Numbered from the stretch's first letter, positions 339 to 60,317 are shown. The stretch is DNA of 64,000 nt from an uncultured Bacteroidales bacterium (GCA_903916595.1 CAIWXI010000049.1:23396-87395); one strand, 5' to 3'. Numbers and translations: made by a program. Notes: generated by a model not told the origin, from the letters alone.

Positions 339-381
339 TGGCAGATATCAGATTTTTCACCATTTCACCATTTCACCATTT
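328..381 (+). repeat. four phased heptamers (CTGATGA CTGATGG CAGATAT CAGATTT) followed by (ATTTCACC)x3.5
   Basis: Read directly. Overlaps the REC stop and ends 9 nt before the GT2 ATG. Confidence 0.9.
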
Positions 382-1936: not shown

Positions 1937-2299
1937 GTGTATCCCCTCGTCTATCATAAAACCCTTACCACCGAAAAGTGGAACTCATATCCCCGCTTTC
2001 AGCAAATCCTGATGATTGCAAATGAGATGAACCGTGCGCAGAATGCACTGCTGAAAAACGACACTCAAAACGCCATACATGCCTGGGAACGCGCATTTGA
2101 ACTGACAGATCTTACAATCAACGACTCCAGTAATGTCAGATATTTAAAGGAGCTCCTTCGCTTCAGGGAATTATCGGGGGAATTGTTCCTGAACCCCGAT
2201 GCCGATTTCAGCAAGGCACTTATGAATGCACTGATAAGCCTGGACCCGAAAGCCTGGAATATGTTGAGATATCAGATATCTGCCATCAGTAATCAGTAG
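1937..2299 (+). CDS. hypothetical protein
   Basis: 120-aa ORF with a GTG start 4 nt after the heptamer array. The last ~10 codons (RYQISAISNQ) are encoded by AGATATC/TGCCATC repeat DNA. It overlaps the mutY stop convergently by 7 nt. Confidence 0.45.
   Translation: MYPLVYHKTLTTEKWNSYPRFQQILMIANEMNRAQNALLKNDTQNAIHAWERAFELTDLTINDSSNVRYLKELLRFRELSGELFLNPDADFSKALMNALISLDPKAWNMLRYQISAISNQ
2267..2294. repeat. four phased heptamers AGATATC AGATATC TGCCATC AGTAATC inside the 3' end of ORF 1937..2299
   Basis: Read directly. Same units and orientation as 23458-23499. Confidence 0.85.
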
Positions 2300-3420
2300 T
2301 CCTCCAGATACTTTTCGATGATCCTGTGGACCGGCAAATCATTGAACTTGCTCCGAAGGATATATGTACCGAATTTTTCGGAGGGCTTTTCGATTTCGAG
2401 GGTGTAAAACCTGGCGGTGATCTTTAGATGGCTCAGAAGATGACTGACTTGCGTAGATTGTCCCAGTACCTTTACCTTGCTCGCCCCGAAAAACTGTCGC
2501 CATTCGGGGGTGTTCATCAGCCTTTGCAGGTTTACTGTTTTTGAAGTTTCAATCAGCGGAAATTCGTACAAGCCCTTCCAGATATCATTTCCTGTACGTT
2601 TCCTGAAAAATAATCCCTTTTTCCCTCTTACGCTAATCACCAGGTAATTGAAATACCTGGGCTTCAGAGGTTGCTGCTGTTTTTTTAGCGGAAGTTTTTC
2701 GACCATCCCGAATTTCAGCGCGTAACAGCTGTCGTTGAAAATGCAGTTATTGCACTGCGGATTACGTGGCACGCAATATGTTGCGCCGAATTCGATCATT
2801 GCCTGGTTGAACGTGCCGGATGTCGGATGCGGGATATGGGATACGGGATGCAAGATATCCTGCATCCTGCATCCTGCATCTTGTAACCTGCATCCTGCAT
2901 CCTGAATCTGTTCCATCAAACCATTCAGCACCTCCATGATCTCCTTCTTCACAGCAGCCTCATCAACCGGCCCGGTGATCCCGAAATGGCGGGTTATGAA
3001 ACGAATCACATTTCCATCCATTACAGGGTGGGGAAGACCGAAGCAGACTGAAGCAATCGCTGCAGCAGTGTAATCTCCAATCCCCTTTAATGCCCGGAGT
3101 CTGTCATAGGTTTCGGGAAATATTCCGTTATACTTTTCAACGATGTCATTTGCCGTGGAATGCAGATTGCGTGCCCTCGAATAATAACCCAGCCCCTGCC
3201 ATTGTTTCAACACCTCATCCTCAGTGGCCACGGCGAGGTCCTGAACCGTGGGAAAGACATCAGCGAACTTGTTATAATAAGGAACTCCCTGTTCAATGCG
3301 GGTTTGCTGCATAATGATCTCCGAAAGCCAGATCAGATAGGGATCGGTCGTCCGCCGAAAAGGAAAATCCCGGGCATTTGCCTTGTACCATTTAAAAAGC
3401 TTGTTCAGGAAATCATTCAT
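2293..3420 (-). CDS. mutY: A/G-specific adenine DNA glycosylase MutY, carrying a ~31-codon in-frame repeat insertion
   Basis: HhH-GPD motifs (LIWLSEIIMQQTRIEQG, LGYYSRARNLH, LKGIGDYTAAAIASVCFG), Fe-S loop CVPRNPQCNNCIFNDSC and a C-terminal NUDIX-like domain. Start moved to ATG 3420 (MNDFLNKLFKWY) because the 29 upstream codons of the track ORF are GTGNNNC repeat DNA and a -7 box lies at 3428-3435. Confidence 0.85.
   Translation of the reverse strand: MNDFLNKLFKWYKANARDFPFRRTTDPYLIWLSEIIMQQTRIEQGVPYYNKFADVFPTVQDLAVATEDEVLKQWQGLGYYSRARNLHSTANDIVEKYNGIFPETYDRLRALKGIGDYTAAAIASVCFGLPHPVMDGNVIRFITRHFGITGPVDEAAVKKEIMEVLNGLMEQIQDAGCRLQDAGCRMQDILHPVSHIPHPTSGTFNQAMIEFGATYCVPRNPQCNNCIFNDSCYALKFGMVEKLPLKKQQQPLKPRYFNYLVISVRGKKGLFFRKRTGNDIWKGLYEFPLIETSKTVNLQRLMNTPEWRQFFGASKVKVLGQSTQVSHLLSHLKITARFYTLEIEKPSEKFGTYILRSKFNDLPVHRIIEKYLEDY
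2816..2908. repeat. 13 phased heptamers forming an imperfect palindrome (GGATG-type arm / CCTGCAT-type arm) centred on GATATC 2854-2859, in frame inside mutY
   Basis: CCGGATG TCGGATG CGGGATA TGGGATA CGGGATG CAAGATA | TCCTGCA TCCTGCA TCCTGCA TCTTGTA ACCTGCA TCCTGCA TCCTGAA. Confidence 0.9.
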
Positions 3421-3427
3421 AGAGTTG

Positions 3428-3435
3428 CAAAAGTA
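3428..3435 (-). promoter_or_regulatory. Bacteroidota -7 box TActTTTG, 7 nt upstream of the mutY ATG
   Basis: The plus strand reads CAAAAGTA. Matches the TAnnTTTG consensus. Confidence 0.4.
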
Positions 3436-3452
3436 CGATAAGTAGTGAAACG

Positions 3453-3508
3453 GTGAGCCATGAGCCGTGACACGTGACACGTGACACGTGGTACGTGCTT
3501 CGTACATC
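3453..3508. repeat. eight phased heptamers GTGNNNC (GTGAGCC ATGAGCC GTGACAC x3 GTGGTAC GTGCTTC GTACATC)
   Basis: Read directly. Lies upstream of the mutY start/-7 box. Confidence 0.9.
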
Positions 3509-5717: not shown

Positions 5718-5725
5718 TTTAATGG

Positions 5726-5790
5726 ACGATGTACAATGTACGATGTACGATTAAAGAGTCCTTCGTACATCGTACATCGTAAATCGTACA
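5726..5790. repeat. inverted heptamer arrays (ACGATGT ACAATGT ACGATGT ACGA / TCGTACA TCGTACA TCGTAAA TCGTACA) giving a ~25-bp hairpin with a 12-nt loop
   Basis: Read directly. Occupies the rng-trpS spacer and ends 4 nt before the trpS ATG. Confidence 0.9.
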
Positions 5791-5794
5791 TTCC

Positions 5795-6843: not shown

Positions 6844-8430
6844 ATGAAACACCTGAAACTTCGGCTTCTGCTGCTTTCCCTCGCTTCCGGATTGCTCTTT
6901 TCCCTTGCCTGGCCTGAGAAAGGAGTTCCGGTCTTGTTGTTTATTGCTTTTGTCCCTTTACTGCGGATGGAGGAGCTTATCAGCTCAAACCGTGAGAAAT
7001 TTAACCGGTTCTCGGTGTTTTTCTGGTCGTATCCCGGTTTCTTCCTGTGGAATTTGCTTACTACCTGGTGGATAGTGAATTCAACCGGACAGGGCGCTGC
7101 CATGGCCGTTTTGCTCAACGCCATGTTCATGAGTATTGTGTTCGCCTTTTTCAGCGGAACAAAGCGCAGGCTGAACAGCAGACCCGCCGGATACCTGGCC
7201 CTGGTCTGTTACTGGGTGATGTTTGAATACCTTCACCTGAACTGGGACCTGAACTGGCCCTGGCTTAACCTCGGAAACGGCTTTGCTTCCTATTCTCACT
7301 GGGTACAGTGGTACGAATATACCGGGGCGTTCGGGGGAACGGTGTGGGTGCTGGTAGCGAATGTGATGATTTTTTCCATTTTAAATGGTGAAATGGTGAA
7401 TCGCCATTTCACCATTTTACTTACTATCCTTCTCCCCATCGCCTTCTCCTACCTCCTCTACTACACTTATAAAGAGAAGGCATGGCCCGTCAACGCTGTG
7501 ATTGTTCAGCCCAACATCGATCCGTATTCCGAGCAGTATGTTCTGCCGCCACAGCAGGTTTTAGGAAGGATCATGAGTATCGCGGGAACCGCTCTTGATT
7601 CCTCGACCAATATCCTGGTGACTCCCGAATCGGCGCTTCAGCAGGAAATGTGGGAGAATGAGTTGGAAACTTTTGAGAGTATTAAACTGGCGAGACAGAT
7701 TATAACAAAGTATCCTGGGCTGAATATTATTCTCGGGGGGACTACTTTTTACGCTTTCAGACCGGACGAGAAAATTCCGCATACCGCCCGGAAGTTCACT
7801 CAGGAGGACCGCTGGTACAACAGGTATAACGCGGCGATCATGGTGAACAGCCATCCGCAGATACAGACCTATCATAAATCAAAACTCACGCCGGGAGTTG
7901 AGATTCTGCCCTCATATAACGGATTCAAATGGCTTGAAAAATATGCTATCGACCTCGGCGGAATTGTCGGAAGCCTCGGCACCGACTCGGTTCGTAAGGT
8001 TCTTCAGGTTGTGAGCATGCCCCCGGTGGCGGCTTGTATCTGCTATGAATCGATTTTCGGGGAATTTTTTGCCGAATTCGTCAGGAATGGCGCCCAGGTG
8101 ATGTGTATTATCACCAACGACGGATGGTGGGGTAATACCGCCGGGCACAGACAGCATTTTTCTTTTGCCCATCTGCGTGCTATCGAGACCCGCCGAAGTA
8201 TTCTCCGATCGGCCAATACCGGGATTTCGGCCGTGATCGACCAAAGGGGCGATGCGCATCAGCAGACGAAATACTGGGTCCCGGCGGTGATCAAAACCAC
8301 TGTTAATGCAAATGATAAAATAACTTTCTACACCGCACATGGCGATTACATCGCGTTCTGGCTTTCGTGGCTCGGCGGATTGCTTTACCTTGGGTCTCTG
8401 GGAGTATGGGTCATGAGGAAACGTATCTGA
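6844..8430 (+). CDS. lnt: apolipoprotein N-acyltransferase
   Basis: Polytopic N-terminal half plus a CN-hydrolase domain with catalytic-Cys context VAACICYESIFGEF. Contains a short in-frame octamer hairpin insert (7383-7417). Confidence 0.85.
   Translation: MKHLKLRLLLLSLASGLLFSLAWPEKGVPVLLFIAFVPLLRMEELISSNREKFNRFSVFFWSYPGFFLWNLLTTWWIVNSTGQGAAMAVLLNAMFMSIVFAFFSGTKRRLNSRPAGYLALVCYWVMFEYLHLNWDLNWPWLNLGNGFASYSHWVQWYEYTGAFGGTVWVLVANVMIFSILNGEMVNRHFTILLTILLPIAFSYLLYYTYKEKAWPVNAVIVQPNIDPYSEQYVLPPQQVLGRIMSIAGTALDSSTNILVTPESALQQEMWENELETFESIKLARQIITKYPGLNIILGGTTFYAFRPDEKIPHTARKFTQEDRWYNRYNAAIMVNSHPQIQTYHKSKLTPGVEILPSYNGFKWLEKYAIDLGGIVGSLGTDSVRKVLQVVSMPPVAACICYESIFGEFFAEFVRNGAQVMCIITNDGWWGNTAGHRQHFSFAHLRAIETRRSILRSANTGISAVIDQRGDAHQQTKYWVPAVIKTTVNANDKITFYTAHGDYIAFWLSWLGGLLYLGSLGVWVMRKRI
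7383..7417. repeat. octamer hairpin AAATGGTGAAATGGTGAA-tcgc-CATTTCACCATTT in frame inside lnt
   Basis: Read directly. Encodes LNGEMVNRHFTIL. Confidence 0.9.
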
Positions 8431-9454: not shown

Positions 9455-9458
9455 TTTA

Positions 9459-9782
9459 CTTCTGCTCTTACTTTGCAGCTCTCAGCTACGGAACTATTAC
9501 GACCCACCATCGGCTTGCTTCCTAAGCCAGGTCAGCCGTTCGGTACTATGTTTGTCTCTTTTATAATGGGATAACCACTTAGTGAAGTCTAATTGAAGCG
9601 AAACATCTCACACAAGCTGCCTTGGGTGTTAAGGAGCGAATTACCCTTTAGAGTAAAATCTGGTAAATCATTCATGAGTGACGCAAACACCCCAGCAGCG
9701 GTGTGAGGATGTGAGCTAATGTAGGTCGCAGTAGTTTCGTAGCTGAGGGGTGCAGGGTCAGCGATGAAGCAGTAATGCAGAG
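9459..9782 (+). ncRNA. orphan highly structured element: candidate ncRNA, or alternatively a MITE-like element with ~24-bp terminal inverted repeats
   Basis: No ORF, lying between two convergent stops. 9481-9504 pairs with 9724-9747 (24 positions: 21 Watson-Crick, 2 G-U, 1 A-C mismatch on the + strand). A nested helix pairs 9604-9630 with 9686-9711, and there is a small hairpin GGCTT-GCTTCCT-AAGCC at ~9512-9528. Strand was assigned only from the G-U count. Confidence 0.4.
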
Positions 9783-9791
9783 ATGCCAGCG

Positions 9792-11150: not shown

Positions 11151-11241
11151 AAAAGTATGTGTTTAAACAGGGTGTTACGACATCCGCCGAAAGAAAATAT
11201 AAACAAGATTTTGTTGGGAAATATTTTATCCCTATTTCCAT

Positions 11242-11249
11242 TATCTTTG
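11242..11249 (+). promoter_or_regulatory. -7 box TAtcTTTG for polA
   Basis: 15 nt upstream of the in-frame TTG 11265. Confidence 0.5.
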
Positions 11250-11264
11250 CATAAAACCACTAAC

Positions 11265-14159
11265 TTGCCAGAAAACAAACTCTTCCTCCTCGATGCAATG
11301 GCCCTGATCTACCGGGCCTACTACGCGTTCAAGAACAACCCCAGGGTGAGTTCCAAAGGAGTAAACACCTCTGCTGCTTTCGGATTTGCCAATACTCTTT
11401 TTGATGTACTGCGGAAGGAAAAGCCCACGCATATAGGTGTTGCCTTTGATACCATCGCACCTACCGTGCGCCACGAAGGGTACGAATTGTACAAAGCTCA
11501 CCGACAGGAAACCCCGGAAGATATAATTTTATCAATTCCTCTTATTCACGAACTTCTTCACGCTTTTAGAATTCCCGTTCTTTTTGTTGATGGCTTTGAG
11601 GCGGATGACGTAATTGGTACCCTCGCCAGGCAGGCTGAAACTGCGGGATGGACTACTTATATGATGACTTCGGATAAGGACTTCGGACAACTTGTAAGTG
11701 CTACCACCCTGATTTACAAGCCCGGAAAGTTCGGCGGAGATGTTGAGATCATGGGCGTGAAGGAAGTCTGCGAGAAGTTCGGGATCAGCAATCCGCTTCA
11801 GGTCATCGATATGCTTGGTTTATGGGGAGATGCGTCGGATAATATACCTGGTATTCCCGGCGTGGGCGAAGTCACGGCCCGCAAACTCCTGGCCGAATTC
11901 GGCTCGGTGGAAAATCTTGTTGAACACCCAGAGAAGGTTGCCAACGAAAAACTGCGTCAGAAAGTTATTGAATTCAAAGATCAGGCCCTGATGTCGAAAA
12001 GCCTGGCAACTATCATTCTTGATGTTCCCATCGCCTTCGAACCGGATAAACTGGTCGTGGAAGCACCCGATGAGCTGCGGCTGAAAAGGTTGTTTGATGA
12101 ACTAGAGTTTCGGGCGCTCGGGGAACGTGTTTTCAAATGGGCGGCAGGGATGCAGGATCCAGGATCCAGGATCCAGGATGCAGGATCCAAAATCTTACAT
12201 CCCGCATCTGACATCCCGGACCTTTTCTCCGACCTTGAATCTGCTTCCCCAATCCCTAATCCCCAGTACCCAGTCACCCAGTCACCCAGTCATCCTGCAT
12301 CCAGCATCCTGGATCACGACTCACGGATCACGGATCACGACTCACTTGCCACGATCTCTGACACTCCCCACACCTATGTTCTTGTCAACACACAGGAAGC
12401 CCGCCTTGACCTCATCCGCAGTCTTAAGAAATCAAAAACATTCTGCTTTGACACGGAAACTACGGGAATTGACCCTAACAACTCGGAACTGGTAGGGATG
12501 TCGTTTTCGGTGAAGCCGCATGAGGCATATTATATTCCTCTCCCCGAGAACTACCATGAGACTGAACTTATCGTCCAGGAGTTCAAGGATGTACTTGAAG
12601 ATCCCAAGATCGAAAAAGTGGGACAGAACATGAAGTTCGACATTGCGATCCTGAAATGGTACGGCATCGATGTTAAGGTTCCCATGTTCGACACTATGCT
12701 GGCGCATTACCTTTTGCAGCCCGACATGAGGCATAATATGGATTTCCTCTCGGAGATCTATCTGAAATACAAGCCGGTACCTATTGAATCCCTCATAGGA
12801 AAAAAGGGCGCGGGCCAGCTTAGCATGCGCACGGTTGATACTGATACAATTAAAGAATATGCTGCGGAGGATGCTGATGTGACTCTTCAGCTGAAAAATG
12901 TGTTCGAGCCTTTGCTGGCTGATAGTGATACCCGTAAACTGTTCGACGAGATAGAGATTCCGCTCATTCCTGTTCTTGCTTCTATGGAAAAGGAAGGTGT
13001 GCGGATAGATTCTTCGGTTTTGAACGAATATTCGGTGGAGCTTGAAAAAGAAGTACTTATAATTAAGGAAGAGATTTTCAGGGAAGCCGGAACAACGTTT
13101 AACATCTCTTCTCCAAAACAGCTGGGCGAAATCCTTTACGAACGGCTGAAGATCGTTGAAAAGCCCAGGCAGACCAAGACCAAGCAGAATTCAACGAGCG
13201 AAGATGTGCTGACTAAGCTTGAAGCAAAACATCCGATCATCAGCAAAATATTGGAATACCGGTCTTTGGCAAAATTGAAGTCGACGTATGTGGATGTGCT
13301 TCCATTGTTGGTAAGCCCCCGTGATAATCGCATTCATACATCGTATAACCAGGCGGTTGCGGCTACAGGCAGACTGAGCTCCAATAATCCAAACCTTCAG
13401 AACATCCCTATCCGCACAGAGAAAGGGCGTGAAATCCGCAAAGCGTTTGTGCCCAGGAATGATAATTATATCTTGCTGAGCGCCGACTATTCCCAGATCG
13501 AACTTCGCATCATCGCATCGATGAGCGGGGATAAAAACATGATGGAGGCCTTTAAAAATGGCGAGGACATCCACCAGGCGACGGCTGCCAAGATTTACGG
13601 CATGAAGCTTTCTGAGGTGAGCAAGGACATGCGCAGGAATGCCAAAATGGTGAACTTCGGGATTATATACGGAATTTCAGCATTTGGTTTGTCAGAACGT
13701 TCAGGCATGTCGCGAAAAGAAGCTGCGGATGTGATAAAACAGTACTTTGAACAATACCCCGGGATCAGGGAGTATATGGATAATACCATCGCTTTTGCCC
13801 GGGCTAACGGTTTTGTGGAAACCCTTATGAAACGCAGGCGTTACCTTAGGGATATCCATTCGGGCAATGCCAACGTTCGCGGATTTGCCGAACGAAACGC
13901 CATCAATGCACCGGTTCAGGGTACAGCGGCCGATATGATAAAGATTGCCATGATCAGGATTTTTCATAAGTTTGAAGAGCAAAAACTAAGGTCGCGGATG
14001 ATATTGCAGGTTCACGACGAACTTGTGTTTGATGTGCATAATTCTGAAGTTGAAGAAGTTAAAAATATAATTGAAATTGGAATGAAGAACGCGTTGCTGC
14101 TGGATGTACCTGTTGAGATTGACATGAATACAGGAGCGAACTGGTTGCTGGCGCATTAG
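11265..14159 (+). CDS. polA: DNA polymerase I; the inter-domain linker is built from heptamer/octamer repeat DNA
   Basis: 5' nuclease (KLFLLDAMALIYRAYYAF), 3'-5' exonuclease (FCFDTETTG), polymerase motifs A (LLSADYSQIELRI), B (RRNAKMVNFGIIYG) and C (QVHDELVF). Start proposed at the in-frame TTG 11265, 15 nt after a TAtcTTTG box. The track ATG at 11157 would leave only 6 nt for the divergent phoH-like promoter. Confidence 0.85.
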   Translation: MPENKLFLLDAMALIYRAYYAFKNNPRVSSKGVNTSAAFGFANTLFDVLRKEKPTHIGVAFDTIAPTVRHEGYELYKAHRQETPEDIILSIPLIHELLHAFRIPVLFVDGFEADDVIGTLARQAETAGWTTYMMTSDKDFGQLVSATTLIYKPGKFGGDVEIMGVKEVCEKFGISNPLQVIDMLGLWGDASDNIPGIPGVGEVTARKLLAEFGSVENLVEHPEKVANEKLRQKVIEFKDQALMSKSLATIILDVPIAFEPDKLVVEAPDELRLKRLFDELEFRALGERVFKWAAGMQDPGSRIQDAGSKILHPASDIPDLFSDLESASPIPNPQYPVTQSPSHPASSILDHDSRITDHDSLATISDTPHTYVLVNTQEARLDLIRSLKKSKTFCFDTETTGIDPNNSELVGMSFSVKPHEAYYIPLPENYHETELIVQEFKDVLEDPKIEKVGQNMKFDIAILKWYGIDVKVPMFDTMLAHYLLQPDMRHNMDFLSEIYLKYKPVPIESLIGKKGAGQLSMRTVDTDTIKEYAAEDADVTLQLKNVFEPLLADSDTRKLFDEIEIPLIPVLASMEKEGVRIDSSVLNEYSVELEKEVLIIKEEIFREAGTTFNISSPKQLGEILYERLKIVEKPRQTKTKQNSTSEDVLTKLEAKHPIISKILEYRSLAKLKSTYVDVLPLLVSPRDNRIHTSYNQAVAATGRLSSNNPNLQNIPIRTEKGREIRKAFVPRNDNYILLSADYSQIELRIIASMSGDKNMMEAFKNGEDIHQATAAKIYGMKLSEVSKDMRRNAKMVNFGIIYGISAFGLSERSGMSRKEAADVIKQYFEQYPGIREYMDNTIAFARANGFVETLMKRRRYLRDIHSGNANVRGFAERNAINAPVQGTAADMIKIAMIRIFHKFEEQKLRSRMILQVHDELVFDVHNSEVEEVKNIIEIGMKNALLLDVPVEIDMNTGANWLLAH
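12145..12218. repeat. about 10 phased heptamers: CAGGGAT GCAGGAT CCAGGAT x3 GCAGGAT, then polarity flip CTTACAT CCCGCAT CTGACAT; in frame in polA
   Basis: Read directly. Confidence 0.9.
12262..12345. repeat. mixed array: CCCAGTA (CCCAGTCA)x3 TCCTGCA TCCAGCA TCCTGGA TCACGAC TCACGGA TCACGGA TCACGAC; in frame in polA
   Basis: Read directly. Confidence 0.9.
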
Positions 14160-14288
14160 AAATGGTGAAATGGTGAAATGGTGAGAATTAATTGTAGAAA
14201 ATAAATGTAGGAATTTAATCTTCTTTTTATTTCACCATTTCACCATTTCACCATTTCACCATTTCACCATTTCACCATTTCACCATTT
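14160..14288. repeat. (AAATGGTG)x3 - 44-nt AT-rich spacer - (ATTTCACC)x7.5: unequal inverted octamer arrays
   Basis: Read directly. The left arm starts 1 nt after the polA stop and the right arm ends 12 nt before the ROK ATG. Confidence 0.95.
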
Positions 14289-14300
14289 AATAATACCCCC

Positions 14301-15398
14301 ATGACCTACACCACCGACAAACGCATCGTCATGACCCTCGACGCAGGGGGCACCAACCTGGTATTTTCCGCCGTTCAGGCTGTAAAAGAGATCATTGACC
14401 CGATTACTCTTCCGGCCAGGGCCAATTCCCTGGAGGATATTCTGAAATCGATTATCAAGGGATTCCAGCTTGTGCAGAGCATGTTGCCGGAAAAAGCTTC
14501 GGCGATCTGCTTTGCCTTTCCCGGACCGGCCGATTATGAGAACGGGATCATCGGCGAACTGCAGAACCTGCCGTTTTTCAGGGGAGGCGTTGCCCTTGGA
14601 CCTATGCTTCGGGAACAATTTGCCATGCCGGTTTTTATTCTCAACGACGGTGATCTGTTTGCCTATGGGGAGGCGATGTTCGGACTGCTTCCGCAGATCA
14701 ATGCGAAGCTCAGGGCTTCGGGGAATCCGAAAGAATATAAAAATCTGCTGGGTGTTACTTTCGGGACCGGCTTCGGGGGCGGGATTGTGACGCGTAATGG
14801 ATTGCTTTTTGGTGATAACTCTGCCGGCGGTGAGATCAACCGTTCCCGCAACCGTACTTTTAAAAACTGGGATGCGGAAGAAAGTGTAAGCATCAGGGGG
14901 CTTAAACGGGAGTATGCAAACAATTGCGGTTTGAATATTGGTTCCGTACCTGAACCTAAGGAGATTTTCGCAATAGGCATGGGGCAGAAACCGGGTCATA
15001 AAGAGGCAGCTGTCAATGCCTTCCTCTCTTTTGCAATTGACGCTGCCGACACAATAGCAAATGCGATAACACTTGTTGACGGGCTTGTGGTTATCGGGGG
15101 TGGCTTATCAGGGGCTTATCCCTTGTTTCTTCCCAAACTTGTTGAGGAGATGAACCTGCCTTTTGCCACGATGAGCGGACATCCCCTGCCCCGTCTTGAA
15201 ACAGAAGTTTATAACCTCGAAGATCAGGAAGAACTGAAGAAATTCCTGATTTCAGGCTCCGGCAGGATACAGGTTCCTTTCTCTGAAACAACGGTGCAAT
15301 ATGACCCCGGAAAGAAAATCGGAGTAGGGATATCAAGGCTCGGAACTTCAGCCGCTGTTTCTCTCGGGGCTTACGCATTTGCACTTTCCCGCCTATAA
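14301..15398 (+). CDS. ROK family protein (sugar kinase-like)
   Basis: N-terminal ATP-binding motif MTLDAGGTN, a second phosphate motif region GTGFGGGIV, ~365 aa. Confidence 0.7.
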   Translation: MTYTTDKRIVMTLDAGGTNLVFSAVQAVKEIIDPITLPARANSLEDILKSIIKGFQLVQSMLPEKASAICFAFPGPADYENGIIGELQNLPFFRGGVALGPMLREQFAMPVFILNDGDLFAYGEAMFGLLPQINAKLRASGNPKEYKNLLGVTFGTGFGGGIVTRNGLLFGDNSAGGEINRSRNRTFKNWDAEESVSIRGLKREYANNCGLNIGSVPEPKEIFAIGMGQKPGHKEAAVNAFLSFAIDAADTIANAITLVDGLVVIGGGLSGAYPLFLPKLVEEMNLPFATMSGHPLPRLETEVYNLEDQEELKKFLISGSGRIQVPFSETTVQYDPGKKIGVGISRLGTSAAVSLGAYAFALSRL

Positions 15399-16890: not shown

Positions 16891-16914
16891 TCTGAAATCA
16901 AGACTTTAATCCTG

Positions 16915-16946
16915 AGAGGCCGTCATTCTATGGCGGCCTCTTTTTA
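16915..16946 (+). terminator. intrinsic terminator after the Omp28-like gene
   Basis: AGAGGCCG-(11-nt loop)-CGGCCTCT followed by TTTT. Confidence 0.65.
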
Positions 16947-17006
16947 TAACCCCTCAAGCAACTATCAGGGCCCATTCTCTGTCTTCTTCTTACTAAAATT
17001 ACCACT

Positions 17007-34555: not shown

Positions 34556-34603
34556 AAATGGTGAAATGGTGAAATGGTGAAATGGTGAAATGGTGAAATG
34601 GTG
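34556..34603 (-). repeat. (ATTTCACC-phase) octamer x6 on the sense strand of the TPR gene, 22 nt upstream of its ATG
   Basis: The plus strand reads (AAATGGTG)x6. Confidence 0.95.
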
Positions 34604-34650
34604 TTCGGCGAAGCCGTAATGAACACAAATAAAATAGACAATTCGTGAAT

Positions 34651-34670
34651 AAATGGTGAAATGGTGAAAT
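34651..34670 (-). repeat. second octamer block x2.5, same orientation
   Basis: The plus strand reads AAATGGTGAAATGGTGAAAT. Lies 12 nt from the dut stop. Confidence 0.9.
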
Positions 34671-53575: not shown

Positions 53576-53647
53576 GGCCCTGTAGTTCAATGGATAGAAT
53601 GGAAGTTTCCTAAACTTTAGATGCAGGTTCGATTCCTGCCGGGGCTA
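53576..53647 (+). tRNA. tRNA-Arg (anticodon CCT)
   Basis: Hand-folded cloverleaf: acceptor GGCCCTG/CGGGGCT (two G-U pairs), D arm GTTC-AATGGATA-GAAT, anticodon arm GAAGT-TTCCTAA-ACTTT, 4-nt variable loop, T arm GCAGG-TTCGATT-CCTGC, discriminator A. No encoded CCA. A -7 box lies 10 nt upstream. Confidence 0.85.
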
Positions 53648-53660
53648 CAAATGTACATAT

Positions 53661-53745: not shown

Positions 53746-54837
53746 ATGAAGATCGGCATCCTTGGCACGCGGGGTATTCCCAATAATTACGGGGGGTTTG
53801 AGCAATTTGCCGAGCATTTATCTGTAGGGTTGGTTCAGCGGGGACATGACGTATGGGTGTACAATTCACATAACCATCCATTCACTGAAAATAGCTGGCA
53901 TGGCGTAAATATTATCCATCGTTATGATCCCGAAGATTACATAGGTATTCCCGGACAGTTTATCTATGATTTTAATTGCATCGTCGACTCCCGCAAACGC
54001 AATTTTGACATTCTTCTCCAACTAGGCTATACAAGTAATTCGATCTGGCACCGGCTCTTGCCTGAGAGAGCAAAGATTGTCACCAATATGGATGGCCTGG
54101 AATGGCAGCGCAGCAAATACAGCAAACCCGTGAAACGGTTTTTGAAATTTGCGGAAAAACTTGCGGTGAAAAGCAGCAACTACCTTATTGCCGATTCAGA
54201 AGTTATCCTGAACTACCTGTCGAAAACCTACCAGGTCCCCGTTACTTTCATACCCTATGGGGCTGACATTTTTGAATCAGCTTATGAAGACGCATTAATT
54301 CCTTTCAAGGTTAACCCGCGTGAATATTTTCTGATCATTGCTCGAATGCAACCCGACAATCACATTGAAGAAATTATAAACGGAGTGTTACTTTCAAAGA
54401 CCATAATGCCGCTTTTGATTGTTGGGAACTGCAGAAACAGATACGGACGATCGCTCCGGACAACATATGAGTCTGAAAAAATCAGGTTTCCGGGACCAAT
54501 TTTTGAAAAAGAGAAACTAAATAATTTACGGTATTTTTCCCGGCTTTATTTTCACGGTCATTCATCCGGCGGAACGAATCCATCGCTGCTTGAAGCCATG
54601 GCCGCTTCGGCACCGATATGTGCGCATGATAATCCCTTTAGCCATGAAGTCTTAGGGAATAATGCCAGGTACTTCTCCAACGCATCACAAATTTCGGAGA
54701 TGATTGATGAAAATCAAAACCAAATTGTAAATCCGGATTTTATCATTGAAAACATTGAAAGGATAAGATTTAAATATAACTGGGTTACATTGATACAATC
54801 GTACGAAACCATGTTCCAAAAAGCTGTTTCTAATTAA
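53746..54837 (+). CDS. glycosyltransferase family 4 (GT-B) with a DUF1972-type N-terminus
   Basis: MKIGILGTRGIPNNYGGFEQFAEHLSVGLVQRGHDVWVY is the DUF1972-type start of rhamnosyl/glucosyl transferases. C-terminal GHSSGGTNPSLLEAMA. Confidence 0.8.
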   Translation: MKIGILGTRGIPNNYGGFEQFAEHLSVGLVQRGHDVWVYNSHNHPFTENSWHGVNIIHRYDPEDYIGIPGQFIYDFNCIVDSRKRNFDILLQLGYTSNSIWHRLLPERAKIVTNMDGLEWQRSKYSKPVKRFLKFAEKLAVKSSNYLIADSEVILNYLSKTYQVPVTFIPYGADIFESAYEDALIPFKVNPREYFLIIARMQPDNHIEEIINGVLLSKTIMPLLIVGNCRNRYGRSLRTTYESEKIRFPGPIFEKEKLNNLRYFSRLYFHGHSSGGTNPSLLEAMAASAPICAHDNPFSHEVLGNNARYFSNASQISEMIDENQNQIVNPDFIIENIERIRFKYNWVTLIQSYETMFQKAVSN

Positions 54838-54867
54838 ATTCACCTCGGAATTCGTTCAGTTTTTTCA

Positions 54868-54875
54868 TAAATTTG
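54868..54875 (+). promoter_or_regulatory. -7 box TAaaTTTG upstream of/overlapping the annotated start of the initiating sugar transferase
   Basis: Consensus match. Its last three nt are the track's TTG start. Confidence 0.35.
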
Positions 54876-56282
54876 CCGGAAAAATTGTTGCATAAACCTG
54901 ATTTGCCGCGAACTTTCGCCAGATATATACCAATCCTTTCACTTGCGGGAGATTTTATCCTTTTAAACCTTTTTTTTGTAGCAGGGTTTTGTTATTTCAA
55001 GGTCGACGGTTCATATTTTGCACCCCGGTATTTACTGTTTTACATCTACCTTAACCTTATCTGGTTAATCCTGGTTCTGTTTTTTGGCACACATAAGATC
55101 GATCAGAATACAAGTAAAAAATCGATTCTTTTTAAATCCTTCAACATTACTGTCTTTTTCTTTTTCCTGTTTTTGCTCTATTTCCAGGTCACTCCCTTGT
55201 CTTATTATCCAAGGGATACTATCAAATATCTATTCCCGGTCTTCTTTATCTTTATTCTTACATGGAAGTTCCTGTTGTATTACGCATTCTATTTTTATCG
55301 TAAAATGGGGTTCAGTCTCAGGAATGTCATCATTTTAGGCTATACTCCCTTAACCATTGACTTGCAGATTTTTTTTCAGAACAACAAATGGGCAGGTTAC
55401 AGCTTCCTGGGTTTTTTCAGTGGAAAAAATGAAGACAATCCAAATATTCTGGGACGATGGCCTGATCTCAAAGCGTTTTTAGATTCAAACCAGGTCGATG
55501 AAATTTATGTTGCTTTAAATGAGATCCCTCGTGACATCCTTCCTGAAATTAACGAGATCATCGACGGGCATCCAGTAAAGGTCCGTATTGTACCTGATCT
55601 CGGAGCCTTTTCTTTTAAAAGTGCAGAGCTCGTCAACTATGGTGCATTGCCTGTCTTGAAAATTCACCGTGGCCCCTTGAGTTACTGGTCTAATCGTTTG
55701 ATCAAACGGGTGTTCGATGTGCTGCTTTCCATTTTTATGATTCTCTTTGTGGTTTCCTGGATCAGTTTGCTTCTATACCTGCTTTCACGTTGTGGCATCT
55801 GTGATGGTGTTTTTTTCAGGCAAACGAGGACAGGTATTGATGGACATCAATATACCTGCATTAAGTTCCGCACCATGAAGAGAAGTTTTGATGCTGATTT
55901 GAAACAAGCAACCCGGGATGATCACCGCGTCTCAAAAACAGGAAAAATTTTGCGAAAATACAGTTTGGATGAACTGCCACAATTCTTCAACGTTTTTTTA
56001 GGTGAGATGTCGGTAGTCGGGCCCCGTCCTCACATGCTTGCACATACCGGGCAATACAGGAAAATGATCAGACAGTTCATGCTCCGGCATACGGTTAAAC
56101 CCGGGATCACGGGCCTGGCGCAGGTAGAAGGATACAGGGGAGAAATCAGGGATGTGAATGATATCAGGAGACGGGTTGATTGTGATGTGCAGTATATTGT
56201 AAATTGGTCGATAATCCTGGATATAAAAATCATGCTAAAAACGATTTGGGTCATTATCAATGGGCAGGAAGAAGCCTATTGA
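54873..56282 (+). CDS. polyprenyl-phosphate hexose-1-phosphate transferase (WbaP/WcaJ-type initiating enzyme)
   Basis: Five N-terminal TM helices and a C-terminal bacterial sugar-transferase domain (KRVFDVLLS..., DELPQFFNVFLGEMSVVGPRP, PGITGLAQV). Start uncertain: the track TTG is the end of a TAaaTTTG box and other in-frame TTGs follow at ~54885-54890. Confidence 0.8.
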   Translation: MPEKLLHKPDLPRTFARYIPILSLAGDFILLNLFFVAGFCYFKVDGSYFAPRYLLFYIYLNLIWLILVLFFGTHKIDQNTSKKSILFKSFNITVFFFFLFLLYFQVTPLSYYPRDTIKYLFPVFFIFILTWKFLLYYAFYFYRKMGFSLRNVIILGYTPLTIDLQIFFQNNKWAGYSFLGFFSGKNEDNPNILGRWPDLKAFLDSNQVDEIYVALNEIPRDILPEINEIIDGHPVKVRIVPDLGAFSFKSAELVNYGALPVLKIHRGPLSYWSNRLIKRVFDVLLSIFMILFVVSWISLLLYLLSRCGICDGVFFRQTRTGIDGHQYTCIKFRTMKRSFDADLKQATRDDHRVSKTGKILRKYSLDELPQFFNVFLGEMSVVGPRPHMLAHTGQYRKMIRQFMLRHTVKPGITGLAQVEGYRGEIRDVNDIRRRVDCDVQYIVNWSIILDIKIMLKTIWVIINGQEEAY

Positions 56283-56387
56283 AAATAATTCATCTGAATC
56301 AGGCTTTCTTAATAATTACAGGGTTTTGCACTCCTATTATTAATTCCTTTGGACATGGGGGCGAAGGAGCGAAGCTTTAAATTATAA

Positions 56388-57554
56388 TTGCACAATAAAC
56401 CTGTCATGACGTTTTTTCATCATATACCCAATATTTTCAAGATTTTATTTCATTTTTCAATTCTCAATTATCTTGCCAGGCCAAGATCTCATCAACGCGG
56501 CTATAATGTGTTTGGATACTTTTCAAAAATTGTTGGCGCAGGGCAGGATGCGCGTGGGTTTGCTGATGAATTAATAAGAAATGGTGATGAATTTGTTCTG
56601 GTTGATTTTTACCAGAAAACGCATAAGCACATTGCCCGATCAGAGGAAAATCCATACAGAAAATATTATTTCAGGAAGTTTATCTATCATACAAATATAT
56701 TTTTTATTGACCCTGCTCAATGGCAAAAAGTCAGAAAAAAAATACCCACGCTGTTTTTAAAAAACAAACACAATATCATCACCTTCTGGTGGGAGTTTGA
56801 AAGTGGATTTGAGGATAGGATTCCTATACTCAACGAATTTAATGAGGTATATGTTTTCAGTGATTTCATATGGAATATATTGAATTCCGTCGATAACAGG
56901 AACTTCAAGATTACCAGGATTAAATACCCGTTTGCAAAAAACTGGATCATTGAGCATGATCCGTTAACAGTAAAAAGGAAATACAATCTGGAAGGAAAGT
57001 TTTGCTTCTTTTTCAATTTTGACTATTTGAGCAGCTATAACAGGAAAAATCCTGAAGCGATTTTATGCGCGATTGCCGAAGAATTTCCAGATGAGGCAGG
57101 TGTTGTTTTAATTGTAAAAACAAACAACAGCAACAGGTTTGAAGAAAAGGAACACAACTTTTTGAACAAGATAAAAAACCTGGGACTGAATGGCCGGGTT
57201 GTTGTCATCAACGATCCACTTTCAAGAAATGGGTTCATGACCCTGCTAAATGCCATGGATTGCTATATCTCCCTGCACCGGGGTGAGGGGCTGGGGCTTG
57301 GTATTTTAGAGGCGCTTGCACTGAACAAACCAGTCATTGCAACCAATTATGGAGGGAATTCAGAATATATGAACAATCCGCTTGCCATGGCTGTTCCATA
57401 TTCAATGATTCCAGCAAACGACGACTACGAACCGTATAAAAATGTGAAATTCTGGGCTGAACCTGACATCAGCGCGGCCAAAAAGTTTATGCGAACTGTT
57501 TTCAACGAGAAAATGCTGATAGCTCATGATTCAAATAGAAATTATGATATATAA
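56388..57554 (+). CDS. glycosyltransferase family 1/4 (GT-B)
   Basis: C-terminal HRGEGLGLGILEALALNKPVIATNYGGNSEYM (E-x7-E region). The start may be ATG 56406. Confidence 0.75.
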   Translation: MHNKPVMTFFHHIPNIFKILFHFSILNYLARPRSHQRGYNVFGYFSKIVGAGQDARGFADELIRNGDEFVLVDFYQKTHKHIARSEENPYRKYYFRKFIYHTNIFFIDPAQWQKVRKKIPTLFLKNKHNIITFWWEFESGFEDRIPILNEFNEVYVFSDFIWNILNSVDNRNFKITRIKYPFAKNWIIEHDPLTVKRKYNLEGKFCFFFNFDYLSSYNRKNPEAILCAIAEEFPDEAGVVLIVKTNNSNRFEEKEHNFLNKIKNLGLNGRVVVINDPLSRNGFMTLLNAMDCYISLHRGEGLGLGILEALALNKPVIATNYGGNSEYMNNPLAMAVPYSMIPANDDYEPYKNVKFWAEPDISAAKKFMRTVFNEKMLIAHDSNRNYDI

Positions 57555-57563
57555 AACTGTGGA

Positions 57564-60005: not shown

Positions 60006-60008
60006 GAT

Positions 60009-60317
60009 ATGGCTGATACTTTAGGCGGATTAATAGATAAATTAAATACCGCAGATTTGAAAATGTGGAATAATCAGGAAATTCTCTATGAAATCAGAAG
60101 AATGTCTTTTGAAGAATACAAGGAGAAATATTTTAACTCTGAACAAGGAGCAGAATTATTATGGTCGGTACTGAAAAAAGCCTGTGATATTAATGTTCAA
60201 AGGAATCAGTTAATAGATGAAATTGATGAAAAGATTATTGAAATGATTGATGCCCGATTGTCGGGTGAGAATCTGGATGATGGAAAATATGTGCAGAGAA
60301 AACATAAAACCTATTAA
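60009..60317 (+). CDS. small helical protein, DUF4254-like (family seen beside GT9 genes; recollection)
   Basis: 102 aa. LIDKLNTADLKMWNNQE motif. Begins 3 nt after the preceding stop. Confidence 0.5.
   Translation: MADTLGGLIDKLNTADLKMWNNQEILYEIRRMSFEEYKEKYFNSEQGAELLWSVLKKACDINVQRNQLIDEIDEKIIEMIDARLSGENLDDGKYVQRKHKTY

What the first reader, a model, noticed from the sequence alone, without database searches (positions are those of the whole stretch)
14160..14288. Unequal inverted octamer arrays, (GGTGAAAT)3 … (ATTTCACC)7.5, bridge polA and the ROK gene
The left arm begins 1 nt after the polA stop and the right arm ends 12 nt before the ROK ATG, with a 44-nt AT-rich loop between them. The arms can pair over ~24 nt in several registers, giving a slippery hairpin. 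The unequal copy number (3 versus 7.5) is what slipped-strand expansion would produce. No TAnnTTTG box is visible in the spacer, so the ROK gene is probably co-transcribed with polA and this structure sits in the intercistronic RNA.
Basis: partly seen in the sequence, partly recalled or inferred. Interest (0 to 1): 0.65.

Follow-up and report, generated by a model that had tools for sequence, protein, structure and literature searches.

The report
Dispersed inverted octamer-repeat element, polA–ROK spacer
The hairpin of 8-base repeats between polA and the ROK gene is real, but it is one copy of a fast-changing family of short tandem repeats that fills gene junctions, and even protein linkers, in this and many other Bacteroidota genomes, so it is probably not a switch made for these two genes.

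Summary
(AAATGGTG)3.2 starts right after the polA stop codon. A 44-nt AT-rich loop follows, then (ATTTCACC)7.5, which ends 12 nt before the ROK ATG. The arms pair perfectly in about six registers (RNA MFE about -50 kcal/mol, z about -8).

The element is not unique. The same octamer array occurs at three more places in the window and in many Bacteroidota genomes. The window's spacers are largely built of 7-8-nt arrays.

At the syntenic polA-ROK junction of relatives, the spacer is either 10-21 nt with no repeats, or filled with arrays. These are usually inverted pairs whose unit differs by lineage. Copy number differs between strains (7.5, 12.5, 15.5) but is identical in eight near-clonal assemblies.

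Two rules emerged:
- 33 of 33 scorable inverted array pairs have the G-rich arm 5'.
- Units are shared more between sites of one genome than between the same site in different genomes.

The closest known kind is the 5-11-nt long simple sequence repeats of Xanthomonas, Nostoc and Beggiatoaceae, whose function is unknown.

Best reading: a slippage-prone, REPIN-like palindromic repeat element tolerated in a permissive intercistronic site. Any effect would come through an RNA hairpin. A dedicated regulatory role is unproven.

The parts
11157..14159 (+). polA (DNA polymerase I, 1000 aa), stop TAG at 14157-14159. The C-terminus NWLLAH* is conserved in relatives.
   Evidence: ORF list; Pfam DNA_pol_A, 5_3_exonuc_N, DNA_pol_A_exo1; conserved tail in orthologous loci
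14160..14184 (+). Left (5') arm: (AAATGGTG)3.2, the G-rich arm, flush with the polA stop. As RNA it carries AUG/GUG every 8 nt and UGA in all three frames.
   Evidence: TRF 14159-14184, 100% matches; sequence
14185..14228 (+). 44-nt AT-rich loop (18% G+C). Its 3' part, TTAATCT..TTTTT, is shared with relatives L132 and L092 although their arm units differ.
   Evidence: sequence; ortholog spacers
14229..14288 (+). Right (3') arm: (ATTTCACC)7.5, G-free, with no ATG and no stop codon in any frame. It has 12.5 and 15.5 copies in two other strains.
   Evidence: TRF; L088/L089 unit-by-unit comparison
14289..14300 (+). 12-nt tail before the ROK ATG. Together with the last TTT of the array (TTTAATAATACCCCC) it resembles the entire 15-nt spacer (TTAAATTCTAAACCC) of relatives without the element. 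The insert therefore sits directly after the stop codon.
   Evidence: comparison by eye
14301..15398 (+). ROK-family gene (365 aa), downstream cistron. There is no TAnnTTTG box in front of it.
   Evidence: Pfam ROK; promoter-box scan
355..381 (+). Family member: (ATTTCACC)3.4 in sense orientation, ending 8 nt before the ATG (390) of a family-2 glycosyltransferase. The orthologous site in L142 carries (TTTCGCTA)3.4.
7383..7417 (+). Family member inside the lnt ORF: a mini-palindrome, AAATGGTGAAATGGTGA/TCGCCATTTCACCATTT, translated as NGEMVN-RHFTI. It lies at a site that is hypervariable in length in lnt homologues.
   Evidence: (I17)
34556..34670 (-). Family members between the dUTPase stop (34683) and the likely ATG (34533) of a TPR gene. 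On the minus (sense) strand these read (ATTTCACC)2.5, a 47-nt spacer, then (ATTTCACC)6. The pair is direct, not inverted.
5718..5794 (+). Same architecture with a heptamer: (ATGTACG)4.3, loop, (TCGTACA)4.1, bridging the RNase E/G stop and the Trp/Tyr-tRNA synthetase ATG. The hairpin is -33.3 kcal/mol. It starts 4 nt after the stop and ends 3 nt before the AUG.
   Evidence: (I1)
12148..12345 (+). Heptamer/octamer arrays inside polA, in the linker between the 5'-3' and 3'-5' exonuclease domains (aa about 330-396). They include a G-first inverted pair (12163-12186 / 12292-12315).
   Evidence: (I7)
2814..2908 (.). Arrays (TGCGGGA)5.4 and (ATCCTGC)7.4 inside the mutY-like ORF (minus strand), in the linker between the HhH-GPD and NUDIX_4 domains.
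   Evidence: the same gene carries arrays in L141 and L143

Best explanation
The element is one copy of a genome-wide family of short-unit (7-8 nt) tandem-repeat elements. The family is typical of this uncultured Bacteroidales-like organism and of many other Bacteroidota. It belongs to the same kind as the 5-11-nt 'long simple sequence repeats' of Xanthomonas, Nostoc and Beggiatoaceae.

Its basic module is a palindrome whose arms are tandem arrays: a G-rich array, a loop, then the complementary C-rich array.

Shown:
- The arrays change length in whole units between strains, as slippage would produce.
- The element is present or absent at the same junction in close relatives.
- At that junction the arm unit differs by lineage, while the two arms usually stay complementary.
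- Units are shared among different sites of one genome.
- Elements occupy a small set of permissive sites: directly after stop codons, directly before start codons, and interdomain linkers of proteins.

Inferred:
- The element persists at the polA-ROK junction because that site tolerates it. polA and ROK form an old, probably co-transcribed pair.
- The G-free (ATTTCACC)n arm next to the ATG has no upstream AUG, no stop codon and no self-structure. The ATG and its 12-nt leader stay unpaired in every register.
- On a read-through transcript the arms would fold into a long, register-shifting stem like a REP-type intercistronic hairpin. This could modestly protect the polA 3' end or lower ROK expression. 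Such an effect is a by-product, not the reason the element exists.
- How the family spreads and stays homogeneous within a genome is not known. Candidates are template switching, gene conversion or a mobilising enzyme.
For: Family membership:
- The same octamer array occurs at four loci in 64 kb, 18 16-mer matches against 0.02 expected.
- Arrays there are flanked by one-base variant units.
- Eight or more spacers in the window are built of 7-8-mers, with recurring unit types.

Dispensability and turnover at the junction:
- The spacer is 10-21 nt without repeats in L091, L094, L121, L130 and L142.
- It is 50-340 nt of arrays elsewhere, with lineage-specific units such as AAAGGCG/TTTCGCC, CTGGGTG/CACCCAG, AGGGTAAC/TTGTTACC and CGTGACG/CGTCACG.

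Slippage:
- Copy numbers are 7.5, 12.5 and 15.5 with identical flanks and an identical ROK protein.
- In the polA linker, (GGATSCA) has 6 copies in the window and 18 in eight assemblies. One assembly has lost a single 8-nt unit.

The palindromic architecture belongs to the element, not to the locus:
- Inverted pairs also lie inside the lnt, polA and mutY ORFs.
- 33 of 33 scorable inverted pairs across all loci have the G-rich arm 5'.

Genome-specific repertoire:
- Mean 7-mer sharing is 0.092 for same genome, different site, against 0.047 for different genome, same site. None of 5000 permutations reached the observed value.

Strand rule:
- In co-directional spacers, stop-proximal arrays are G>C on the sense strand in 26 cases against 3.
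- Start-proximal arrays are C>G in 29 cases against 14.
- This matches the rule reported for GGGNATC heptamers (PMC4692102).

No terminator-like site lies at the element. No Rfam family reaches its gathering score. No exact promoter box lies in the spacer.
Against: - A hairpin of some kind recurs at this junction in most relatives, from 100% down to about 70% ROK identity, including one non-repeat GC hairpin (L122). That could reflect selection for a structure.
- The arms sit flush with the stop and start codons here and at 5718-5794. This is the geometry expected of a translational-coupling or insulating hairpin.
- The strict G-first polarity and the sharing of units within a genome have no demonstrated neutral mechanism.
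- There are no transcript, protein-binding or expression data.
- Gene calls used for the strand statistics were crude ORF calls.
- The loci were sampled through the octamer itself or through synteny, so they are not independent.
- Copy numbers come from short-read assemblies.
Confidence: 0.6

Rival explanations
1. Dedicated intercistronic RNA device. The stem acts on the polA-ROK transcript as an attenuator, a 3'-end protector or a translational coupler. A ribosome terminating at the polA UAG would melt the left arm and free the leader of ROK. The surplus right-arm copies would set how much G-free single-stranded leader is available, so copy number would tune ROK expression.
For: - The stem is very stable.
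- The left arm starts at the stop codon, and the ATG stays unpaired.
- The same flush geometry occurs at RNase G-TrpRS, in Hymenobacter sp. 102 (L057 7071-7188) and in L001.
- Hairpins with z below -4 are found in most array-bearing orthologous spacers.
- The five array-preceded genes in the window all lack their own TAnnTTTG box.
Against: - The element is absent from relatives with 90-92% identical ROK, which have 13-15-nt spacers.
- In some relatives a TAnnTTTG box lies inside the loop or after the right arm, so the two arms need not be on one RNA.
- The same inverted pairs occur inside ORFs.
- Arm-length asymmetry is not consistent: the left arm is longer in L139.
- There is no U-tract and no terminator-like match.
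Confidence: 0.2
2. Array of binding sites for a trans-acting protein. One possibility is an RNA chaperone of the S1 or cold-shock-domain type, loading on the pyrimidine-rich (AUUUCACC)n leader, as proposed for TAACTGA repeats. Another is a DNA-binding protein. The unit would co-evolve with the specificity of that protein.
For: - Sense-oriented C-rich arrays lie a few nt upstream of start codons in many genomes.
- The unit repertoire is genome-specific and shared between sites.
- There is precedent as a hypothesis in PMC4679880 and bioRxiv 10.1101/2022.06.06.494920.
Against: - Several unrelated unit types coexist in one genome.
- Arrays occur inside ORFs and after stop codons in the opposite orientation.
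- No candidate protein was identified. The window's ORFs from 1 to 52 kb are ordinary housekeeping and signalling genes.
- The cited papers propose binding factors but do not demonstrate them.
Confidence: 0.1
3. Phase-variation (contingency) locus. Rapid reversible changes in copy number would switch ROK or polA expression within a population.
For: Perfect tandem repeats, and copy number differing between strains.
Against: - The array lies between a stop and a start codon. It is not in an ORF or between promoter elements.
- Eight assemblies from at least two projects are identical in copy number.
- The neighbouring genes are housekeeping genes, not surface structures.
- The units are 8 nt long, and arrays of this kind sit next to all classes of genes (PMC4692102 reaches the same conclusion for heptamers).
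Confidence: 0.03

Closest known systems
Heptameric long simple sequence repeats of Xanthomonas and Nostoc (GGGAATC / GGGGA(C/T)T; Rehm et al. 2015, PMC4692102; class defined by Mrazek et al. 2007, as cited there)
   Same: - Tandem units of 5-11 nt are spread over the genome and over-represented in non-coding DNA between co-directional ORFs.
- The G-rich strand is the sense strand within 50 nt after stop codons and the antisense strand within 50 nt before start codons.
- Repeats lie between the same genes in related species but vary extensively in length and sequence.
- They are not tied to surface or virulence genes.
- Inverted copies are noted as possible stem-loops.
- Function is unknown.
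   Different: - The unit here is an octamer with only GG, so no G-quadruplex is expected.
- The host phylum is Bacteroidota.
- Inverted pairs are frequent here and obey a strict G-first polarity.
- Several unit families coexist and turn over between close relatives.
- Arrays are tolerated in frame in protein linkers.
TAACTGA direct repeats of marine Beggiatoaceae, some Cyanobacteria and five Bacteroidetes (MacGregor 2015, PMC4679880)
   Same: - Short tandem repeats lie in sense orientation within a few nucleotides upstream of start codons.
- They are occasionally found in reverse orientation right after a stop codon, and occasionally inside ORFs.
- Related intergenic regions carry other heptamers.
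- Phylogenetic distribution is patchy.
   Different: - The unit is different.
- In that study almost all sets were direct repeats (169 direct, one 'indirect').
- No ortholog-by-ortholog turnover or polarity rule was described.
- A post-transcriptional regulator was proposed but not shown.
Cyanobacterial STRR (short tandemly repeated repetitive) heptamers (recalled from memory: Mazel et al. 1990)
   Same: - Families of heptamer arrays are dispersed in intergenic DNA.
- Some units seen in the related loci, (ATTGGTC)n in L120 and (CCAATGA)n in L110/L115, are rotations or complements of STRR2 TTGGTCA.
   Different: The phylum is different. The identity of units was judged by eye only. STRR function is also unknown.
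REP / REPIN elements with their RAYT transposases (recalled from memory: Bertels & Rainey 2011; Nunvar et al. 2010)
   Same: - A dispersed, genome-specific repeat family sits in extragenic spacers, often just after stop codons.
- The basic module is an inverted doublet that folds as a hairpin.
- Elements persist at orthologous positions.
- A known by-product is mRNA 3'-end protection.
   Different: - The arms here are tandem arrays of a 7-8-nt unit, not a 20-40-nt imperfect palindrome.
- Copies occur inside ORFs.
- No RAYT or Y1 transposase was seen in the 52 kb annotated, though the rest of the genome could not be searched.
Rickettsia palindromic elements (recalled from memory: Ogata et al. 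2000)
   Same: Small palindromic repeats inserted in frame into housekeeping protein genes at permissive positions, as seen here in lnt, polA and mutY.
   Different: RPEs are units of about 100-150 bp with a fixed sequence, not tandem 7-8-mers. The phylum is different.
Rho-independent (intrinsic) terminator
   Same: A stable stem directly after a stop codon.
   Different: - The loop is 44 nt and there is no U-tract.
- The consensus scan finds no terminator-like site at the element.
- The organism has canonical terminators elsewhere, for example in the spacer 16891-17006, GAGGCCG..CGGCCTCTTTTT.

Membership tests
Dispersed 5-11-nt long simple sequence repeats (LSSR / STRR kind) | Head-to-tail tandem copies of a 5-11-nt unit, three or more copies | tested here: met
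   TRF: period 8, 3.2 and 7.5 copies, 100% matches
Dispersed 5-11-nt long simple sequence repeats (LSSR / STRR kind) | The same unit is repeated at many separate loci of the genome, far above chance | tested here: met
   Four loci in 64 kb; 18 16-mer matches against 0.02 expected. Many contigs of single MAGs carry it (CAIYES, JBBQUQ). Only 64 kb of the source genome could be examined.
Dispersed 5-11-nt long simple sequence repeats (LSSR / STRR kind) | Enriched next to ORF ends with strand asymmetry: G-rich on the sense strand after stops, C-rich on the sense strand before starts | tested here: met
   Stop-proximal arrays are G>C in 26 cases against 3. Start-proximal arrays are C>G in 29 against 14. 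This covers 129 arrays in co-directional spacers, with crude ORF calls. The rule is as in PMC4692102.
Dispersed 5-11-nt long simple sequence repeats (LSSR / STRR kind) | Length and sequence vary between close relatives at the same intergenic position | tested here: met
   7.5, 12.5 and 15.5 copies in strains. Different units, or an empty site, in relatives with 84-92% identical ROK.
REP / REPIN-RAYT | Inverted doublet of the repeat that folds as a hairpin | tested here: met
REP / REPIN-RAYT | Each repeat is a 20-40-nt imperfect palindrome with a conserved head | tested here: not met
   The arms are tandem octamers with no internal palindrome
REP / REPIN-RAYT | A cognate RAYT (Y1 transposase) gene in the genome | not testable with these tools
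   None among the ORFs of window 1-52 kb. The rest of the genome is not available.
REP / REPIN-RAYT | Strictly extragenic | tested here: not met
   Copies lie inside the lnt, polA and mutY ORFs
Intrinsic terminator | Short GC-rich stem, small loop, followed by a U-tract | tested here: not met
   The terminator scan finds nothing at 14160-14300. The loop is 44 nt and the stem is followed by AUUUCACC or AAUAAUACC.
Phase-variable contingency SSR | Repeat lies in an ORF or between promoter elements, so that unit changes switch expression | tested here: not met
   It lies between the polA stop and the ROK ATG. There is no TAnnTTTG box in the spacer.
Phase-variable contingency SSR | Length heterogeneity within populations | tested here: inconclusive
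   Eight near-clonal assemblies are identical. Raw reads were not available.
MITE | Terminal inverted repeats with a target-site duplication, and copies of fixed length | tested here: not met
   No duplication at the filled site compared with the empty site (by eye). The loops of the four octamer loci in the window are unrelated.
Known RNA families (Rfam 15) | Match at or above a family's gathering score | tested here: not met
   Only sub-threshold matches to eukaryotic miRNA-precursor models, that is, a generic long hairpin. The whole window gives only a tRNA.

The most novel reading that the evidence does not exclude
These are a so-far undescribed class of REPIN-like palindromic elements in Bacteroidota whose arms are tandem 7-8-mers. 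They have an obligatory polarity: the G-rich arm is 5' on both strands, in 33 of 33 scorable pairs, inside ORFs as well as between genes. Their unit sequence evolves in concert across dispersed sites of a genome, while the occupied sites (polA-ROK, the lnt loop, the polA and mutY linkers, RNase G-TrpRS) stay the same between genomes.

That combination would call for a dedicated process. One candidate is a polar fold-back or template-switch mechanism acting on the G-rich nascent strand. Another is a trans-acting enzyme or binding protein that writes, copies or selects the arrays. If so, this would also offer a handle on the unsolved question of what cyanobacterial STRR and Xanthomonas/Nostoc heptamer repeats are.
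Probability: 0.3. Interest if true: 0.75.

Novelty: new variant of a known kind. Interest (0 to 1): 0.55.

Why it matters
Short 7-8-nt tandem repeats next to gene ends have been known for decades in cyanobacteria, Xanthomonas and Beggiatoaceae, without an accepted function or origin.

This locus provides a clean comparative series. One conserved gene junction is empty in some relatives and filled in others, with inverted arrays of different units. Strain-level changes in copy number are visible, and there are parallel sites inside housekeeping proteins.

The strict G-first polarity and the sharing of units within a genome are simple, testable rules. They constrain any model of origin or function.

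Practically, the arrays break or distort short-read assemblies. They also change protein length in polA (6 versus 18 heptamers), lnt and mutY, and in one assembly they frameshift polA. This matters for annotating Bacteroidota MAGs.

For polA-ROK regulation itself, the finding is probably of minor importance.

Tried and rejected
- Intrinsic terminator or sigma-70 promoter at the site: the consensus scan found none at the element.
- Bacteroidota -7 box TAnnTTTG in the spacer: no exact match.
- Known RNA family: only sub-threshold generic hairpin models matched.
- Phage or mobile origin: 0 exact matches to (ATTTCACC)3 in 2.9 million viral contigs.
- Transposase or RAYT nearby: none in the ORFs from 1 to 52 kb.
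- MITE with target-site duplication: the filled and empty sites show no duplication.
- Literature on this octamer: no paper in the library contains the array string.
- CRISPR-like array: rejected on sight, since the period is 8 nt with no spacers.
The best hit was 73% nucleotide identity to a Bacteroidales MAG, so the organism is named only to phylum/order level.
- Column-by-column covariation test of the stem: not attempted, because tandem arrays cannot be aligned unambiguously. Unit-level comparison was used instead.
- One locus (P0033) had no DNA on file.
- Ideas considered but not testable here: avoidance of Rho loading by sequestering the C-rich arm; mini-ORFs (AUG GUG AAA UGG UGA) in the left arm; reverse-transcription fold-back as the origin of the polarity.

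Full report
**1. Observation**

The polA ORF (11157..14159; Pfam DNA_pol_A plus both exonuclease domains) ends with TAG at 14157-14159. Directly after it lies a perfect period-8 array, (AAATGGTG)3.2, at 14159/60-14184. A 44-nt tract with 18% G+C follows at 14185-14228. Then comes a perfect (ATTTCACC)7.5 at 14229-14288, 12 nt before the ATG (14301) of a ROK-family gene.

The left arm is 100% complementary to the right arm over 25-26 nt in five registers, and over shorter lengths in two more. As RNA, 14150-14310 folds at -49.6 kcal/mol, against -23.1 +/- 3.3 for shuffles (z = -7.95). In the predicted fold the ATG and the 12 nt before it are unpaired, and no register of the arms reaches them.

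**2. The element is not unique**

The same octamer array occurs at three other places in the window.
- 355-381: sense-oriented, ending 8 nt before the ATG of a glycosyltransferase.
- 7383-7417: a 17+17-nt mini-palindrome inside the lnt ORF.
- 34556-34603 and 34651-34670: both in ATTTCACC orientation on the minus strand, between the dUTPase stop and the ATG of a TPR gene.

More generally, the short spacers of the window are largely made of 7-8-nt tandem arrays, and a few unit types recur: GATAACR, TCGTAMA, ATCAGAT and ATTTCACC. The spacer between RNase E/G and a class-I tRNA synthetase (5718-5794) has the same architecture with a heptamer: (ATGTACG)4, loop, (TCGTACA)4. It folds at -33.3 kcal/mol. 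The stem starts 4 nt after the stop and ends 3 nt before the AUG.

**3. Other genomes**

The organism is a Bacteroidota. The evidence is T9SS sorting domains, lnt homologues named Bacteroidetes/Bacteroidales MAGs, and 73% nucleotide identity to a Bacteroidales MAG.

They come mostly from Bacteroidales, Flavobacteriales, Hymenobacter, Chitinophagaceae and Saprospiraceae, with a few from other phyla. In those loci the arrays are flanked by one-base variants such as ATTTTACC, ATCTCACC, ATTTCACT and ATTTCGCT. They often end a few nucleotides before an ATG.

The full architecture, stop-(GGTGAAAT)n-loop-(ATTTCACC)m-ATG, recurs in several places:
- Hymenobacter sp. 102 (L057 7071-7188).
- H. piscis (L047), where the stem continues into non-repeat sequence TTTGATGTT/AACATCAAA.
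- A Bacteroidales MAG (L001), with 3.6 against 27.8 copies.

No viral contig carries the array. No paper in the library contains it.

**4. The same junction in relatives**

The identical ROK protein is found in many assemblies. Eight loci from at least two projects have a spacer identical to the window's. These are near-clonal, at 99.98% identity or more downstream of 12148.

Two JGI contigs from other strains have the same left arm and loop but 12.5 and 15.5 right-arm copies, with one or two ATTTCTCC variant units. These strains are about 94% identical in polA, and their ROK protein is identical. Copy number therefore changes between strains, in whole units and only in one arm, as slippage would produce. 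There is no sign of within-population heterogeneity at this site.

polA-ROK synteny holds down to 55% ROK identity, but the spacer is hypervariable.
- **Empty:** 10-21 nt without repeats in L091, L094, L121, L130 and L142.
- **Inverted array pairs with lineage-specific units:** AAAGGCG/TTTCGCC, AAAAGCG/TTTTCGC, AAATAGCG/TTCGCTAC, AGGTAGTG/TCGCTACC, CTGGGTG/CACCCAG, AGGGTAAC/TTGTTACC and CGTGACG/CGTCACG. Fold z-scores run from -4 to -10.
- **One-directional arrays only:** L124, L127, L134, L118, L123 and L099.

The 3' part of the loop (TTAATCT..TTTTT) is shared by the window, L132 and L092 although their arm units differ. At least part of this diversity is therefore descent with change in both arms.

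The 15 nt before the ATG in the window (TTTAATAATACCCCC) resemble the whole spacer of the empty sites (TTAAATTCTAAACCC). This places the insert exactly at the stop codon, with no visible target duplication.

In several of the ~70%-identity relatives a Bacteroidota -7 box (TAnnTTTG) lies in the loop or after the right arm (by eye). There is none in the window's spacer, although 11 of 49 ORFs in the window have one. None of the five array-preceded genes does.

**5. Arrays inside genes**

Homologues of lnt (60-83% identical) range from 528 to 607 aa. The cause is a variable insert exactly where the window has its mini-palindrome. The inserts are translated arrays: NGEMVN|RHFTI here, GEKRKAKSE...FHLSLFAFRFS in L139, and LPITNYQLPITNYQ (= (CCAATTA)n) in the genome of L116.

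The polA interdomain linker (12148-12345) and the mutY linker (2814-2908) are also array-encoded. In polA the window has 6 GGATSCA units where eight otherwise identical assemblies have 18. One assembly has lost a single 8-nt unit, which splits polA into two ORFs. Many of these intragenic arrays are again inverted pairs.

This matters for interpretation. The palindromic architecture is a property of the element, not something built for an intercistronic RNA.

**6. Two rules**

**(a) Polarity.** Among 34 inverted array pairs detected in all held loci, 33 have the G-rich arm 5', one is a tie, and none is C-first. One weak C-first case, below the detection threshold, was seen by eye in L141. Because a palindrome reads the same on both strands, this polarity does not depend on gene orientation.

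The polarity is equivalent to the single-array rule measured in co-directional spacers:
- After stops, arrays are G>C on the sense strand in 26 cases against 3.
- Before starts, arrays are C>G in 29 cases against 14.

Rehm et al. reported the same rule for GGGNATC heptamers in Xanthomonas and Nostoc (PMC4692102).

**(b) Repertoire.** I compared five hot spots in seven syntenic genomes (window, L139-L144). Arrays at different sites of one genome share more 7-mers (mean 0.092; 33% of pairs above 0.15) than arrays at the same site in different genomes (0.047; 7%). None of 5000 permutations of genome labels reached the observed value.

Examples:
- L139 has GAAAAGC/TTTCGCT at lnt, the polA linker and polA-ROK.
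- L142 has TAGCGAAA/TTTCGCTA at five sites, with an empty polA-ROK spacer.
- The window has ATTTCACC at four sites.

Caveats: there are few genomes, the sites are related by descent, and gene calls were crude.

**7. How it most likely works**

Shown:
- Unit-wise length change.
- Gain, loss and unit turnover at a fixed site.
- Complementary arms.
- Genome-specific units.
- Restriction to permissive sites.

Inferred: the element is a self-perpetuating or slippage-driven repeat that is tolerated here.
- The C-rich arm next to the ATG has no G, so it has no self-structure. It has no AUG and no stop codon in any frame.
- The G-rich arm, which has AUG/GUG every 8 nt and UGA in all frames, faces the stop codon, where these features do no harm.
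- On a read-through transcript the stem would behave like a REP-type intercistronic hairpin. It could possibly protect the polA 3' end or damp ROK expression.
- Relatives with 13-15-nt spacers show this is dispensable.

I give this reading 0.6. A dedicated RNA device (attenuator or translational coupler) gets 0.2. The flush geometry at the stop and start codons, and the recurrence of hairpins at this junction, speak for it. Intragenic copies, empty sites in close relatives and the variable position of promoter boxes speak against it. A protein-binding array gets 0.1 and phase variation 0.03.

**8. Comparison with what is known**

The element passes all four tests for the dispersed 5-11-nt LSSR/STRR kind. 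It fails the tests for an intrinsic terminator, a contingency locus, a MITE, any Rfam family, and REP proper: there is no internal palindrome and the element is not strictly extragenic. It does share the REPIN doublet-hairpin design.

It is a new variant of a known kind, in three respects:
- An octamer family in Bacteroidota.
- Frequent inverted pairs with strict polarity.
- In-frame colonisation of protein linkers, with unit turnover within a genome-specific repertoire.

What writes and homogenises these arrays, and why the G-rich arm always comes first, remains unexplained. That is the part worth following up.

Noticed in passing
window 12148-12345 (polA linker); L080-L087: The polA interdomain linker is encoded by heptamer/octamer arrays. 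The window has (GGATSCA)x6 where eight otherwise identical assemblies have x18 (+84 nt, in frame). L086 lacks one 8-nt ACCCAGTC unit, which splits polA into two ORFs. In L080 and L083 identity to the window drops from about 100% to 96.8% upstream of the array, and several contigs end there. This could be either a recombination or assembly boundary at the repeat, or a collapse in one assembly.
   Followed up: partly
window 7383-7417 (lnt ORF 6844-8430); P0002-P0098: The lnt protein has a hypervariable insert between the LNT_N and CN_hydrolase domains, and homologues range from 528 to 607 aa. In most homologues the insert is a translated inverted array pair whose unit matches arrays elsewhere in the same genome.
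   Followed up: yes
window 2814-2908 and 3466-3490 (mutY-like ORF 2293-3507, minus strand): Arrays (TGCGGGA)5.4/(ATCCTGC)7.4 lie in the linker between HhH-GPD and NUDIX_4. A (CGTGACA)3.6 array lies at the N-terminal end of the ORF. mutY of L141 and L143 carries other heptamer arrays at the same place, up to 16 copies.
   Followed up: partly
window 5718-5794: Inverted heptamer arrays form a -33 kcal/mol hairpin that fills the whole spacer between RNase E/G and an essential tRNA synthetase, ending 3 nt before its AUG. Translation of the synthetase must either tolerate the stem or depend on its melting, for example by the ribosome terminating on the upstream gene.
   Followed up: partly
window about 9590-9720 (spacer 9455-9791); L098 2341-2469; L095; L140 lnt insert and 13066-13242, 3111-3171: A second, non-tandem dispersed element of roughly 70-130 nt (…cacacaagc.gc…ggtgt…gacgcaaacacc..agc.gcg.tg.ragatg.gagc…) occurs in this convergent spacer. 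It also occurs in the polA-ROK spacers of L095 and L098 and, in frame, inside lnt of L140. It has internal complementarity and no Rfam match.
   Followed up: partly
L023, L028, L047, L057 (Hymenobacter spp.): In Hymenobacter the octamer arrays are joined to a conserved non-repeat sequence (AACATCAAACTCACC / GGTGAGTTTGATGTT) that extends the stem. This suggests a discrete palindromic element of which the arrays are the outer arms. L057 has three inverted array pairs in 8 kb.
   Followed up: no
L120 2345-2368; L110 and L115/L116 polA-ROK spacers; L027: Some units in these Bacteroidales loci are the same as cyanobacterial or Beggiatoa heptamers. (ATTGGTC)n and (CCAATGA)n correspond to STRR2 TTGGTCA, and (GACAACT)n resembles TAACTGA.
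   Followed up: no
window 53576-53648 and 54000-62000: A tRNA-Arg(CCT) is followed by a region whose G+C falls from about 47% to 29-39%, with a run of co-directional ORFs. This may be a horizontally acquired island, such as a polysaccharide or surface-structure cluster. It was not annotated.
   Followed up: no
L090/L119/L139 polA-ROK spacer: The variant units in the two arms appear in the same 5'-to-3' order: AAAGGCG, AGAAGCG, AAAAGCG on the left and CGCCTTT, CGCTTCT, CGCTTTT on the right. A simple inverted duplication would give the mirrored order. This is unexplained.
   Followed up: no
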